Shown here: one piece after another, positions 57,218-60,190 of the stretch
Numbering within the stretch: position 1 is the stretch's first letter
Layout: the number at the start of each line of letters is the position of its first letter
NCBI GenBank assembly: GCA_002502135.1
Contig: DAPM01000011.1
Coordinates: forward strand, 7,736 to 71,735
Length of the DNA stretch: 64,000 nt
Reading direction: 5' to 3'
Source: an archaeon UBA543
Lineage (GTDB): Archaea; Undinarchaeota; Undinarchaeia; Undinarchaeales; UBA543
The notes under the pieces: generated by a model
Seen by the model: the letters and a program-made list of their open reading frames with translations, nothing else
Told to the model about the DNA's origin: nothing
Database searches by the model: none
Program-made: the position numbers and the translations under genes

Positions 57218-57292
57218 TGGCAGGCCCGCCGAGAGTTGAACTCGGGTCTGTAGCTCCGCAAGCTACCATGATATCCACTACACTACGGGCCC
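57218..57292 (-). tRNA. tRNA-Arg (anticodon GCG), CCA encoded
   Basis: Minus strand reads GGGCCCG TA GTGTAGTGGATATCAT G GTAGC TTGCGGA GCTAC AGAC CCGAG TTCAACT CTCGG CGGGCCT G CCA. Confidence 0.85.
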
Positions 57293-57404
57293 ATTTTCCA
57301 ATGACGCTTGGCATACGAGTTTTTCACACTTAACCAAGCGGATACGAGCCGCGCAGCGGCCTCTCGCCCTCCGTGAGAAGACGGAGCTACTACTACGGGC
57401 CCAT
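57293..57404 (-). other. duplicate of the tRNA-Arg(GCG) 5' end followed by a ~95-nt GC-rich three-hairpin block
   Basis: ATGGGCCCGTAGT occurs at 57404-57392 and again at 57294-57282. Hairpins lie at 57369-57386, 57348-57360 and 57305-57340. There is no D-loop GG, T-arm or 3' acceptor, so it is not a tRNA. Confidence 0.6.
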
Positions 57405-57441
57405 CAATGCTTTAAAACCCTATAACTCTAGCTTTATATTC

Positions 57442-57969
57442 TTAACCCCCTACAAAATTAATAAACAATCCAGGCCAGTTGTGCAGAACAAAGTAGAACA
57501 TCATCATAAAGAACGTACCCATTATCAAGTACTTAATGAAATTCTCATGGTATGTGAAGAATCGGAAACCTTCTCGTATAAGTTCTGCAAACAATAGGAT
57601 TATGATAACTGGTATGAAATAATTCTGCAAAGTCAGCAAACTTGCGAAAATCGCAACAAATAGCATATGCAGTGTGTCCATTAGTGTCAGTATTGGATTG
57701 TAAATTCCAATCCACCCACTCACTGTATTTGTTATGCTTGTGCTCAGAATCGCTATGTACGCACACACCCAGAACCCGTAAGTTATTGCAACAAACACCA
57801 TCAGTATGCTGTGCACTTCCAAATTCATTGAGTGATAAATCAAATTCGACCTACTCAGAACACATATCAATATCAGCCAGAGAAGAAGTGTTGTTTTTCC
57901 AGGAAGAACAAAGCGCGAGAGGCCGAGAATTAGCACTATGGATAGTATGTCCAATGCATGTCCTTTCAT
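57442..57969 (-). CDS. polytopic membrane protein, family member 4
   Basis: I prefer the ATG at 57969 (MKGHALDIL). The track start at 58053 overlaps tRNA-Arg(CCT). Family motifs are SRSNLIYHSMNLEVHS and GIYNPI. Confidence 0.5.
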   Translation of the reverse strand: MKGHALDILSIVLILGLSRFVLPGKTTLLLWLILICVLSRSNLIYHSMNLEVHSILMVFVAITYGFWVCAYIAILSTSITNTVSGWIGIYNPILTLMDTLHMLFVAIFASLLTLQNYFIPVIIILLFAELIREGFRFFTYHENFIKYLIMGTFFMMMFYFVLHNWPGLFINFVGG

Positions 57970-58047
57970 TACCACAGTTACCCTCTCCTTATCCCAATAT
58001 TTTAGTAACCAAACTTTATTAAGTTTTGTATAGTGGAAAATAAAAAG

Positions 58048-58122
58048 CACCACCGGAGAGATTTGAACTCTCGACCTTTTCCTTAGGAGGGAAACGCCTT
58101 ATCCAAACTAGGCTACGGTGGT
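58048..58122 (-). tRNA. tRNA-Arg (anticodon CCT), CCA not encoded
   Basis: Minus strand reads ACCACCG TA GCCT AGTTTGGATA AGGC G TTTCC CTCCTAA GGAAA AGGTC GAGAG TTCAAAT CTCTC CGGTGGT G. Confidence 0.8.
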
Positions 58123-58134
58123 AATTTTTGAAAT

Positions 58135-59874
58135 CTACATCCTGTTCGGTTCTTCAATTCCAAGAAGATACAAGCATTTTTGTAGGGTTTTATATGTTGC
58201 GATTACCAGTGCCAGGCGGGCATTTCTCAATTCCGGTGTTTCAGCTTCAATAACTGGATTAGTTGTATAGAAAGCGCTGAATTTATCAGCCAAAGCATAA
58301 GTGTAATTTGCAACTATGTGAGGTTGGTATGTTTCTGCAGATTCTCGAATCACCATTGGAAGTTTGCTAATCTGCTTTATCAATCTCTGTGAATCTTTGT
58401 TATTCAATAGTTTGAAATCAACATTAGCAGAAGATTTCTTTCCAGCTTTCTCAATAATTCTCTTTGCTCTTACAGTTGCATATTGGATATACGGTCCAGT
58501 GTCTCCTTCAAATTCAAGAGCAGTATCCCAGTCAAAGAAAATTGTCTTGTTGTTCCCAACATTCAGCATACTATATTTCATTGCAGCAATTGTGATTTTC
58601 ATTGCCAATTCTTTTTGCACCTTTGGTACAATTTCTGGATTTCTGTCATGAACTTCACTCATAGCTTTCTTCATCATCTCATCTCTTAAATCTGCATACA
58701 GAATTGCAGTTCCTTCTCTGGAACTCATCTTTCCTTCCTTCAAAGTAACTAATGAATACGCTAGGTGGTGACACTTTTTCGCTTTCTTGAATCCCATTAG
58801 TTCAAGTGTCTTGAATAATTGTTGGAAGTGGAGCCGCTGTTCTGAACCAACAACATAAACTGATTTATCAATCTTGAATTTCTTGAACTTCTCTTCAGCA
58901 AGTGCCAAATCTTGTGTTGAGTAAAGTGCTGTTCCATCGCTTTTCAATAAAAGCCACACTGGCAATCCCTCTTTTTTCAAATCAATAATTGTAGCGCCTT
59001 TGCTTCTTTTTGCAAGTTTCTTCTTTCTTAATTCTTCAATAATTTCCTTGCCTCTTGGTTTCAAATCGCTCTCATAAAAGTCCTCATCAAAATGAGCATC
59101 AAGCTCCTTGTAAATTTCCTTAAATTCATCCACACTCCAGGTTCTAAACTGTTTCCACAACTTAGTTATTTCTTCTTCATCCTGTGCTTCCAAATGCTTG
59201 AGGATCTCACTTACTTCTTCTTTTTTATCTGGGTCCTCTTCTAGTCTTCGACATGCATCAACGTAAATCTTGTTAATCCATTTTGAAACATTTGTATGGG
59301 CTTTCTCACCCTCGTGGAAGTTCTTGTAGCACCACAATGTTTTAGCAACATGCATCCCAATATCATTGAAAAGATTTGCCTGAATCACATCATGTCCTGC
59401 CTCTTTCATTATTCTTGACAGACTTTCTCCAAGAGTTGTGTTTCTAACATGTCCAATATGGAAAGCTTTCAGCGGGTTAGGCTGGCTGTACTCAATCATT
59501 ACTTTGTCCTTCTGTTTCTCGCCTTTTCCAAAAGAGTCTTTCTGAGCTTCAGTAACAACTGCTTTAGCAAATTCTCCGAATTTTAGGAAAAAATTAACAT
59601 ATGCGCCTGCTAGTTTTATCAAATAAACACTGCGCGGTCTTCTGACTTTGTCAATAATATCTTCAGCAATTTTTCTTGGGCTGACTTTCTTTATTTTCCC
59701 AATTGGGAATGAAATACTACAGGCCAAGTCGCCCATTTTGTAGCTTGGTGGCTCTTCAATATGATTTGCAAGTTTCAGTTTTTTCAAATGAGTTTTCGGA
59801 ATTGCTAGTCTAGGCATTACTTCTGCTACTGCTTTTGTAACATCTTCTCTTGCTTTTTGCCAAGGATCTTTCAT
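58135..59874 (-). CDS. argS: arginyl-tRNA synthetase
   Basis: 579 aa with an N-terminal Arg-tRNA-binding domain, HIGH-type HIGHVRN, an MSSR-type (KMSKS-like) motif and a C-terminal DALR-like domain. Confidence 0.9.
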   Translation of the reverse strand: MKDPWQKAREDVTKAVAEVMPRLAIPKTHLKKLKLANHIEEPPSYKMGDLACSISFPIGKIKKVSPRKIAEDIIDKVRRPRSVYLIKLAGAYVNFFLKFGEFAKAVVTEAQKDSFGKGEKQKDKVMIEYSQPNPLKAFHIGHVRNTTLGESLSRIMKEAGHDVIQANLFNDIGMHVAKTLWCYKNFHEGEKAHTNVSKWINKIYVDACRRLEEDPDKKEEVSEILKHLEAQDEEEITKLWKQFRTWSVDEFKEIYKELDAHFDEDFYESDLKPRGKEIIEELRKKKLAKRSKGATIIDLKKEGLPVWLLLKSDGTALYSTQDLALAEEKFKKFKIDKSVYVVGSEQRLHFQQLFKTLELMGFKKAKKCHHLAYSLVTLKEGKMSSREGTAILYADLRDEMMKKAMSEVHDRNPEIVPKVQKELAMKITIAAMKYSMLNVGNNKTIFFDWDTALEFEGDTGPYIQYATVRAKRIIEKAGKKSSANVDFKLLNNKDSQRLIKQISKLPMVIRESAETYQPHIVANYTYALADKFSAFYTTNPVIEAETPELRNARLALVIATYKTLQKCLYLLGIEEPNRM

Positions 59875-59925
59875 GATATTTATCTATTATGTTGAGTTGT
59901 TTATATATTAAGGGATTGTGGAATG

Positions 59926-59950
59926 GTTTTCAAGTTTTCAGGTTTTCAAG
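59926..59950. promoter_or_regulatory. three tandem 8-nt repeats upstream of the argS TATA-like box
   Basis: Plus strand reads gttttcaa gttttcag gttttcaag, which is TTGAAAAC CTGAAAAC TTGAAAAC on the argS strand. A TATA-like tttatatatta lies at 59900-59910, about 30 nt before the ATG. Confidence 0.35.
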
Positions 59951-59997
59951 AAGACTCGATAACTCGAAAACCCGAGAACTTCACTAGTTTGGTTGAG

Positions 59998-60074
59998 TGG
60001 TGGGCTCACAGGGATTCGAACCCTGGTTCGGAGGTCCGAAGCCTCCAGTGATATCCAAGCTACACTATGAGCCC
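59998..60074 (-). tRNA. tRNA-Arg (anticodon TCG), CCA encoded
   Basis: Minus strand reads GGGCTCA TA GTGTAGCTTGGATATCAC T GGAGG CTTCGGA CCTCC GAACC AGGG TTCGAAT CCCT GTGAGCCC A CCA. Confidence 0.85.
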
Positions 60075-60080
60075 ATGCTA

Positions 60081-60190
60081 TGGTGGGCCCAAGGGGATTT
60101 GAACCCCCGATTTGCAGCTTAGAAGGCTTGCGGAAGGCGAAGAAAAAACTCGCGCCCCTTGCCGCCTTATCCAGACTAGGCTATAGGCCC
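60081..60190 (-). tRNA. tRNA-Arg (anticodon TCT) with 32-nt intron in the anticodon stem (non-canonical position), CCA encoded
   Basis: Exon 1 (60190-60160) reads GGGCCTA TA GCCT AGTCTGGATA AGGC G GCA. The intron (60159-60128) reads AGGGGCGCGAGTTTTTTCTTCGCCTTCCGCAA. Exon 2 (60127-60081) reads GC CTTCTAA GCTGC AAATC GGGGG TTCAAAT CCCCT TGGGCCC A CCA. Splicing restores the stem GCAGC/GCTGC. Confidence 0.75.

What the first reader, a model, noticed from the sequence alone, without database searches (positions are those of the whole stretch)
57282..57404. Duplicate of the tRNA-Arg(GCG) 5' end separated from the real tRNA by a GC-rich three-hairpin block
On the minus strand the 13-mer ATGGGCCCGTAGT, made of 2 leader nt plus tRNA positions 1-11, occurs at 57404-57392 and at 57294-57282. 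The spacing is 110 nt. The match extends to 17/18 positions if one 1-nt indel is allowed. The downstream copy starts the intact tRNA. The upstream copy is followed by about 95 nt of GC-rich sequence with three hairpins: ctccgt-gagaag-acggag (57369-57386), gccgc-gca-gcggc (57348-57360) and cgcttgg-22 nt-ccaagcg (57305-57340). The geometry mirrors the tRNA-Gln case: a target duplication with a structured insert next to a tRNA. The insert sequence is different and the duplication is shorter, so this may be a second family of tRNA-targeting mini-insertions. Alternatively it is an unannotated small RNA co-transcribed with the tRNA.
Basis: partly seen in the sequence, partly recalled or inferred. 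Interest (0 to 1): 0.6.

Follow-up and report, generated by a model that had tools for sequence, protein, structure and literature searches.

The report
Small mobile insert before tRNA-Arg gene
A 97-base hairpin-rich element has inserted between the promoter and the tRNA-Arg(GCG) gene of a tiny marine archaeon, copying the first 13-18 bases of the tRNA so the gene stayed whole; it is one of five copies of an undescribed repeat family that sits at the ends of tRNA genes, and no known transposase was found in the genome.

Summary
The 13-mer ATGGGCCCGTAGT occurs exactly twice in the window, 110 nt apart, and three GC-rich hairpins lie between the copies.

The block is not unique. The 734-kb genome (Undinarchaeota, DPANN) holds five copies. 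Four lie directly 5' of different tRNA genes (Arg-GCG, Ala-GGC, Thr-GGT, Tyr-GTA), each preceded by a duplicate of that tRNA's own first 13-18 nt. The fifth lies antisense at the 3' end of tRNA-Lys.

Two sister species have the tRNA-Arg(GCG) locus without the block, and one of them carries a copy in front of tRNA-Pro instead. So this is a recent insertion with a target duplication.

The only promoter lies upstream of the distal repeat. The element must therefore be transcribed as a roughly 115-nt tRNA leader, which RNase P (its RNA gene is present) would remove.

The element has no terminal inverted repeats and no Rfam match. The genus shows no reverse transcriptase, tyrosine integrase, IS4-type DDE transposase, Cas1 or Y1 transposase.

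It shares its first hairpin, its orientation rule and its long duplications with a second family at tRNA 3' ends. How it moves is unknown.

The parts
57432..57440 (-). TATA-like promoter box (AATATAAAG) of the tRNA-Arg(GCG) transcription unit, 29 nt upstream of the distal repeat's tRNA +1
   Evidence: The same box sits at the same 29-nt spacing directly in front of the tRNA in the empty G002 locus. The spacing fits the 25-30 nt seen at other tRNA genes of this genome.
57392..57404 (-). Distal copy of the target duplication (X, copy A): 2 leader nt plus tRNA positions 1-11. An imperfect extension (A+GTAG) reaches 57387.
   Evidence: Exact 13-mer. The extension is read.
57295..57391 (-). Inserted element (family A), 97 nt, 56% GC in a 40% GC genome: H1, GNNGAGAG linker, H2, H3 and the tail GTCATTGGAAA
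   Evidence: It is absent from the orthologous G001 and G002 loci. There are five covariance-model hits in the own genome. It has no terminal inverted repeats and no Rfam family match.
57369..57386 (-). Hairpin H1, CTCCGU-CUUCUC-ACGGAG; this hairpin is shared with family B
   Evidence: U-A to C-G compensatory change among the own copies. Three of its 6 pairs show changes on both sides among 12 sequences. A regex scan finds the same hairpin type in family B copies.
57348..57360 (-). Hairpin H2, GCCGC-UGC-GCGGC, with a closing G.U pair
   Evidence: Four of its 6 pairs carry compensatory changes.
57305..57340 (-). Hairpin H3, CGCUUGG-22 nt-CCAAGCG
   Evidence: Consensus fold. Conserved in the four close copies, degenerate in the G001 and tRNA-Lys copies and absent from the G002 copy.
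57282..57294 (-). Proximal copy of the target duplication (X, copy B): 2 leader nt plus the first 11 nt of the intact tRNA
57218..57292 (-). Intact tRNA-Arg(GCG) gene, CCA encoded
   Evidence: ARAGORN; Rfam RF00005, 59.2 bits

Best explanation
The block is a copy of a small (about 95 nt), non-coding, GC-rich, three-hairpin mobile element, called family A here. It is specific to one genus of marine Undinarchaeota.

Shown:
- It inserted into the 5' edge of the tRNA-Arg(GCG) gene. The insertion duplicated the stretch from about -2 to about +11/+15 of the tRNA, which left an intact gene downstream and a 13-18-nt stub upstream.
- The only promoter lies upstream of the stub.

Inferred:
- The element is transcribed passively as part of a roughly 115-nt 5' leader.
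- RNase P, whose RNA gene is present, removes this leader, which would explain why the insertion is tolerated even in front of the only tRNA-Tyr gene found in this 78%-complete assembly.

Across families A and B the geometry is constant. Read in element orientation it is: duplicate X, then H1...tail, then X plus the rest of the tRNA. The tail always faces the tRNA body.
- The inner end of X lies in a conserved tRNA loop: the D-loop near G18/G19 for 5' copies, and the T-loop/T-stem boundary for 3' antisense copies.
- The outer end of X is variable (-1 to -9 at 5' ends; +2 to +43 at 3' ends).
- The X-to-H1 junction is ragged, with 1-3-nt indels. The tail-to-X junction is clean.

Proposed mechanism (inferred): a specific joining event takes place at the conserved tRNA loop, together with a second break or re-priming at a variable distance outward. 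Fill-in then produces the long duplication. Only events whose duplication spans the whole tRNA end survive, because only they regenerate the gene.

The enzyme is unknown. None of the usual ones is encoded in the three genomes of the genus. The candidates are an unrecognised integrase acting in trans, or host replication/repair template switching.

The confidence given applies to 'recent mobile insertion with target duplication, carried as a tRNA leader'. The proposed joining mechanism on its own is much less certain (about 0.3).
For: 1. Repeat and hairpins confirmed.
2. There are four BLAST copies and five covariance-model copies in the own genome. All of them abut tRNA gene ends, and each has a duplicate of that particular tRNA's terminus: Arg 13 nt, Ala 18, Thr 18, Tyr 15, Lys 57.
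3. Empty sites. In G002 the same promoter flank (AATATAAAG...TAAAGC) abuts the tRNA directly. G001 is also empty.
4. G001 has a family A copy 5' of tRNA-Pro(TGG), a locus that is empty in the own genome. G002 has one at the start of an ABCE1-like gene with a 15-nt duplication. Each congener has only one hit.
5. In all four own loci the promoter boxes lie 25-30 nt upstream of copy A, the normal spacing for tRNA genes here. Nothing promoter-like lies at that spacing inside the element.
6. The RNase P RNA gene is present at G000 C11:7792-8130.
7. The hairpins are kept by compensatory changes: 96% of cells paired, 11 pairs with changes on both sides, 0 of 500 shuffles as good.
8. The same junctions occur in independent metagenome assemblies.
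9. Orientation rule and boundary pattern are read. All 13 tRNA-associated copies of families A and B have the tail facing the tRNA.
Against: - No mobilising enzyme was found. There is no RVT_1, Phage_integrase, DDE_Tnp_1, Cas1 or Y1_Tnp in G000, G001 or G002. These MAGs are only 78-82% complete and only five Pfam families were tried.
- No transcript data exist, so co-transcription and RNase P removal are inferred only.
- No polymorphic (empty) allele was seen within the sampled populations. Mobility is therefore inferred from between-species differences only.
- The pattern of a fixed inner boundary and a variable outer boundary rests on about 13 insertions read by eye.
- The preserved hairpins could mean that the RNA has a function of its own.
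Confidence: 0.8

Rival explanations
1. The block is a functional structured RNA (a leader element or small RNA) co-transcribed with the tRNA. It might control pre-tRNA processing or act in trans, and the 5' stub would serve to pair with the tRNA 3' acceptor strand.
For: It must be co-transcribed. The hairpins are kept by compensatory changes, and the G.U pairs in H2 and H3 pair only on the tRNA-sense strand. In an MFE fold of the whole precursor the distal stub pairs with the 3' acceptor strand.
Against: It is absent from the orthologous locus in both congeners. The four loci in the own genome are unrelated tRNAs, and each congener has a single copy at yet another site, one of them a protein gene. 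It has no Rfam match. The MFE structure has an ensemble frequency of 0.0045. The stub decays with age, as in the G001 Pro copy.
Confidence: 0.1
2. The block plus the proximal repeat is an archaeal intron. The mature tRNA would start at the distal repeat, and the splicing endonuclease would excise the 110 nt at a bulge-helix-bulge motif in the D-loop.
For: This genome has several tRNA introns, including a non-canonical one at window 60084-60190. Excising between equivalent positions of the two repeats would give the same mature tRNA. The D-stem tetramers AGCT and GATC are palindromic and could form a central 4-bp helix.
Against: By inspection, the flanking helices that a BHB motif requires cannot form in any of the four loci. 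The downstream gene is complete on its own and is called as a standard 75-nt tRNA. The same element occurs antisense at tRNA 3' ends and at a protein gene start, where splicing makes no sense. RNase P RNA is present to remove a leader.
Confidence: 0.04
3. The repeats are att-type scars of a site-specific integrative element (virus or plasmid) that later lost its interior, leaving only its ends.
For: Integrative elements of archaea and bacteria commonly duplicate part of a tRNA gene (established knowledge; the casposon case is in PMC5137440).
Against: The duplicated sequence differs at every copy and always matches the local tRNA, whereas a site-specific element carries one fixed att core. The 95-nt interiors are 88-96% identical across loci, which independent internal deletions would not produce. 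No tyrosine recombinase is present in the genus. These copies duplicate the 5' end of the tRNA, not the 3' end.
Confidence: 0.05

Closest known systems
MITEs and other small non-autonomous prokaryotic repeats (archaeal SM-type MITEs; bacterial Correia/NEMIS, RUP, REP/BIME)
   Same: Short, non-coding, multi-copy and hairpin-rich. They sit in intergenic DNA, show presence/absence differences between close relatives, and have a target duplication.
   Different: There are no terminal inverted repeats. The duplications are long and variable (13-25 nt, once 57) rather than short and fixed. Placement and orientation at tRNA gene ends are strict. No parent IS or transposase was found.
Casposons (Cas1-casposase transposons), e.g. 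the Aciduliprofundum boonei casposon at tRNA-Pro
   Same: Both have a roughly 15-bp target duplication that overlaps the end of a tRNA gene. In the casposon, the adjacent T-psi-C-loop segment is part of the recognised target (PMC5137440). Here, the 3'-end copies of this superfamily start their duplication right after the T-loop.
   Different: There is no Cas1 in the genus and there are no TIRs. The element is about 95 nt and non-coding. The duplication length varies. Many different tRNAs are hit, at the 5' end as well as the 3' end.
IS1634/IS1549-type insertion sequences
   Same: [quoted passage not shown]
   Different: Those are 1.5-2-kb DDE transposase-encoding IS elements with inverted ends. 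No DDE_Tnp_1 homologue is found here.
tRNA-gene-targeting retrotransposons and SINEs (Ty3, Dictyostelium TRE5-A; LINE-mobilised SINEs)
   Same: They insert just upstream of tRNA genes or at their transcription start. TSDs vary in length. One junction is clean and one is ragged, and there is an A-rich 3' tail next to the clean junction (established knowledge).
   Different: These are eukaryotic and depend on reverse transcriptase. No RVT_1 is found in the genus. The tail here is only GGAAAA.
GC clusters of yeast mitochondria and Rickettsia palindromic elements
   Different: Those lack 13-25-nt duplications and lack this strict tRNA-end geometry.

Membership tests
MITE (DDE-transposon derivative) | Terminal inverted repeats | tested here: not met
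   The local alignment of the first 30 nt against the reverse complement of the last 30 nt scores 3-4, below the shuffle mean of about 5, in all four copies.
MITE (DDE-transposon derivative) | Short target duplication of fixed length | tested here: not met
   Exact duplications of 13, 15, 18, 18 and 57 nt; about 25 nt, decayed, in G001.
MITE (DDE-transposon derivative) | Related autonomous IS with a transposase in the genome or in relatives | tested here: not met
   No PF01609 hit in G000, G001 or G002. Only one DDE Pfam family was tried, and the MAGs are 78-82% complete.
Casposon / Cas1-type integration | Cas1 (casposase) gene | tested here: not met
   No PF01867 hit in G000, G001, G002 or G004.
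Casposon / Cas1-type integration | 14-15-bp TSD next to a tRNA T-loop 'leader', with TIRs | tested here: inconclusive
   TSDs of 13-21 nt start after the T-loop in 3' copies, which resembles PMC5137440. But there are no TIRs, the length varies, and 5'-end copies exist.
Tyrosine-recombinase integrative element (att in tRNA) | Integrase gene and one fixed att core shared by attL and attR of all copies | tested here: not met
   No PF00589 hit in the genus. The duplicated core differs at every locus and equals the local tRNA sequence.
SINE-like retroposon (target-primed reverse transcription) | Reverse transcriptase available | tested here: not met
   No PF00078 hit in G000, G001 or G002.
IS200/IS605-derived palindrome-associated element | Y1 transposase; insertion without target duplication | tested here: not met
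   No PF01797 hit in 13 genomes. Duplications are present.
Archaeal BHB tRNA intron | Bulge-helix-bulge motif at both boundaries, and interruption of the mature tRNA sequence | tested here: not met
   The downstream tRNA is uninterrupted. No flanking helices for a BHB motif were found by inspection of the four loci. The MFE fold shows none.
Any Rfam RNA family | Covariance-model match | tested here: not met
   Only the tRNA matches. The best other hits have E > 1 and score far below gathering thresholds.

The most novel reading that the evidence does not exclude
Families A and B together form a new class of archaeal mobile element. These elements home to the most conserved tRNA loops (the D-loop at 5' ends, the T-loop at 3' ends), always with the same polarity. 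They make long duplications of variable length that rebuild the tRNA gene. They spread in ultra-reduced DPANN genomes without any known transposase, integrase, Cas1 or reverse transcriptase. The mechanism would be either an unrecognised enzyme or host replication template switching at tRNA genes. The 3'-end copies carry a T-loop-like terminus (GTTYGGAR), which may guide targeting.
Probability: 0.3. Interest if true: 0.8.

Novelty: new variant of a known kind. Interest (0 to 1): 0.6.

Why it matters
DPANN archaea with genomes under 1 Mb are thought to be almost free of mobile DNA. Here a recently active repeat family sits in front of tRNA genes, including tRNA-Tyr(GTA), the only Tyr gene in the assembly. 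It is tolerated because it rebuilds the tRNA end it interrupts.

Three features fit no described prokaryotic element: long variable duplications, fixed polarity towards the tRNA, and the absence of TIRs and of known enzymes. They point either to a new integration enzyme or to a transposase-free copying route.

There are also practical consequences:
- Such stubs can be mis-called as tRNA fragments.
- The repeats break metagenome assemblies at tRNA loci.
- They predict unusually long, structured pre-tRNA leaders as natural RNase P substrates.

Tried and rejected
- Rfam at gathering and at E <= 10 found nothing except the tRNA.
- H/ACA and C/D guide RNA readings were checked by eye. There is no CUGA D box, no ACA box and no pseudouridylation pocket, so both were rejected.
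- A promoter inside the element was rejected. The only A-rich stretch (GAAAAACTCGTATG) ends 19 nt before the tRNA, whereas real boxes lie 25-30 nt upstream, and it lacks a TATA-like sequence. The sigma-70 scan is irrelevant for an archaeon.
- A BHB intron was rejected.
- An RNA-seq search found no RNA runs.
- Empty alleles were sought in four metagenome runs. No joints were found, and the contigs break inside the repeat.
- The genome-contig scan for the H3 motif returned only the G001 Undinarchaeota MAG plus chance bacterial hits.
- The metagenome scan for H1 returned mostly chance GC-rich hits. Only two loci were real (L132, identical to the Thr copy, and L085, like G001).
- The viral-contig scans for the family B tail and for H1 found no real copy.
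- Enzyme searches for RVT_1, Phage_integrase, DDE_Tnp_1, Cas1 and Y1_Tnp were all negative in the genus.
- Gene conversion between tRNA genes was rejected as the route of spread, because both repeat copies carry recipient-specific acceptor sequence.
- One repeat finder failed on strand syntax and was replaced.

Full report
**Observation**

On the minus strand the window reads: promoter flank, then ATGGGCCCGTAGT (57404-57392), then a 97-nt GC-rich block, then ATGGGCCCGTAGT (57294-57282), which continues as tRNA-Arg(GCG) at 57292-57218. The 13-mer occurs only at these two places in 64 kb. Chance expectation is 0.01 matches. Rfam finds only the tRNA, even at E <= 10.

**The block is a repeat family at tRNA gene ends**

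The window belongs to a 734-kb assembly of 23 contigs, 40% GC and 78% complete. A public record with a matching contig is titled Candidatus Undinarchaeota archaeon. BLAST finds four copies of the block at 88-100% identity, and a covariance model built from them finds a fifth.

The four close copies lie directly 5' of four different tRNA genes. Each is preceded by a duplicate of that tRNA's own 5' end.

| tRNA | Duplicate |
|---|---|
| Arg(GCG) | ATGGGCCCGTAGT (13 nt) |
| Ala(GGC) | ATTGGGCCCGTAGATCAG (18 nt) |
| Thr(GGT) | AATGCCTTGATAGCTCAG (18 nt) |
| Tyr(GTA) | TCCCCTCTTAGCTCA (15 nt) |

No other tRNA in the genome has a 5'-end duplicate of this kind.

The fifth copy lies antisense at the 3' end of tRNA-Lys(TTT). 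It is bracketed by a 57-nt duplication that includes the tRNA 3' end.

Random placement cannot explain five of five copies abutting a tRNA end. The roughly 80 tRNA ends offer about 1 kb of target in 734 kb.

**It is an insertion**

In sister species G002 the orthologous tRNA-Arg(GCG) lies in the same neighbourhood, with tRNA-Arg(CCT) upstream. There the promoter flank (AATATAAAG ... TAAAGC) abuts the tRNA directly. In the window the same flank abuts the distal repeat. G001 also lacks the block. The difference is exactly 110 nt: the element plus one copy of the repeat.

Conversely, G001 has a family A copy 5' of tRNA-Pro(TGG), with a decayed duplicate of about 25 nt. The tRNA-Pro locus of the own genome is empty.

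G002 has one truncated copy (H1, H2 and an A-rich tail) at the start of an ABCE1-like gene. It duplicates 15 nt that include the start codon. Each congener has only that one hit, so the four 5' insertions here are specific to this lineage.

Contigs from independent metagenomes (2014, 2020, 2023) carry the same four junctions. They break inside the repeat, as assemblers do at dispersed repeats. No empty allele was seen.

**Structure**

Across 12 family A-like sequences the three hairpins are 96% paired. Eleven pairs show changes on both sides, and none of 500 shuffles reaches the observed values. One caveat: the alignment was fitted to the model.

The G.U pairs in H2 and H3 would be A.C mismatches on the other strand. 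This suggests that the H1-first strand is the one that folds, and for the 5' copies that is the transcribed pre-tRNA strand. The element has no terminal inverted repeats.

**Expression (inferred)**

In all four loci a TATA-like box lies 25-30 nt upstream of the distal repeat. That is the spacing seen at ordinary tRNA genes of this genome. Nothing comparable lies between the element and the tRNA. The element must therefore be transcribed as a roughly 115-nt 5' leader.

RNase P RNA is encoded at G000 C11:7792-8130 (131 bits). Ordinary 5' processing can therefore release the tRNA. This explains tolerance even in front of tRNA-Tyr(GTA), the only Tyr gene in this 78%-complete assembly. No RNA-seq run holds the stretch, so this remains unproven.

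**Relation to the other family**

A second family (B, at least 12 copies) sits 3' of tRNA-Gln (two genes), Leu, Trp and Ser, and also at non-tRNA sites. Earlier notes of this scan had described it as a mobile element with long duplications.

Read in reverse complement, family B has the same architecture as family A: duplicate X, then H1 (CTCCGY-loop-RCGGAG or a close variant), then H2, then a tail containing ATTGG, then X plus the tRNA in antisense. A more distant genome, G004, has intermediate forms. One lies antisense at the 3' end of tRNA-Glu. Another forms a tandem X-element-X-element-X array.

In all 13 tRNA-associated copies of both families the tail faces the tRNA body and H1 faces away.

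- **Inner end of X.** It lies in a conserved loop. For 5' copies this is the D-loop near G18/G19, with 1-3-nt indels in the last few nucleotides. For 3' copies it is the T-loop/T-stem boundary.
- **Outer end of X.** It varies from -1 to -9 at 5' ends and from +2 to +43 at 3' ends.
- **T-loop-like terminus.** The tRNA-associated family B copies, but not the others, carry an 8-nt T-loop-like terminus (sense GTTYGGAR) next to X.

**Mechanism**

No reverse transcriptase, tyrosine recombinase, IS4-type DDE transposase, Cas1 or Y1 transposase is detectable in the three genomes of the genus. Each of these searches rang in at least 3 of the 14 control genomes (3, 14, 9, 7 and 6 of 14). Scans of viral contigs found no copy.

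The best-supported reading is a non-autonomous insertion made by a staggered or re-primed joining event. The inner point is set by the conserved tRNA loop. Selection then keeps only events whose duplication regenerates the tRNA. Whether an unknown enzyme or host replication/repair does this is open.

The closest precedents are:
- casposase integration next to a tRNA T-loop with a 15-bp duplication (PMC5137440);
- IS1634/IS1549, which make 8-514-bp duplications by an unexplained route (PMC2266710).

The element fails the defining features of both families: it has no Cas1, no DDE transposase and no TIRs.

**Verdict**

This is a real, recently active and so far undescribed small element. It is a variant of the MITE-like kind with unusual targeting and duplication. 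The mechanism is unresolved.

Noticed in passing
window 57218-60190, minus strand: All four tRNA-Arg isoacceptor genes cluster around the arginyl-tRNA synthetase gene (58135-59874): GCG at 57218-57292, CCT at 58047-58122, TCG at 59998-60074 and TCT at 60084-60190. The TCT gene appears to carry a non-canonical intron of about 32 nt in the anticodon stem. Rfam calls it a tRNA (43 bits) but ARAGORN misses it in the window.
   Followed up: partly
G000 C5:36290-36431 (3' of tRNA-Lys-TTT): A family A body (H1 and H2) with a TTCCTCAC terminus lies antisense at the tRNA 3' end. It is bracketed by a 57-nt duplication that includes a degenerate H3 and the tRNA end. This probably reflects two successive events at one target.
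   Followed up: partly
G000 C11:7792-8290; G004 C12:3742-4205: The RNase P RNA gene is followed at its 3' end by family B-like or related hairpin elements, both in the own genome and in the distant G004. The elements may therefore target stable-RNA genes in general, not only tRNAs.
   Followed up: no
L028 (G004 C4:111281-114342): Tandem array X-element-X-element-X with X = AGCTTCTGAGCAATC. This looks like repeated insertion into a target that each insertion regenerates, a layout reminiscent of repeat-spacer arrays.
   Followed up: no
G000 C16:8060-8170 and C16:31960-32060; C6:22900-22960; C11:8150-8195: There is a further repeat family with the motif GGCTCAC..CACTTTGT.CGTTCGCTTGA. It lies beside tRNA-Phe and tRNA-Trp and downstream of family B copies. 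Full-length family B may be a composite that includes it.
   Followed up: no
G000, G001, G002 (whole genomes): No Phage_integrase (XerA-type) match was found in any of the three genomes of the genus, although all 14 control genomes have one. This may reflect incompleteness or a real loss.
   Followed up: no
window 57282-57292 compared with G001/G002 orthologues: tRNA-Arg(GCG) starts with G1 (a G1.U72 pair) in this genome but with A1 (A1-U72) in both congeners. Both repeat copies carry G1, so the change predates the insertion or was copied with it.
   Followed up: no
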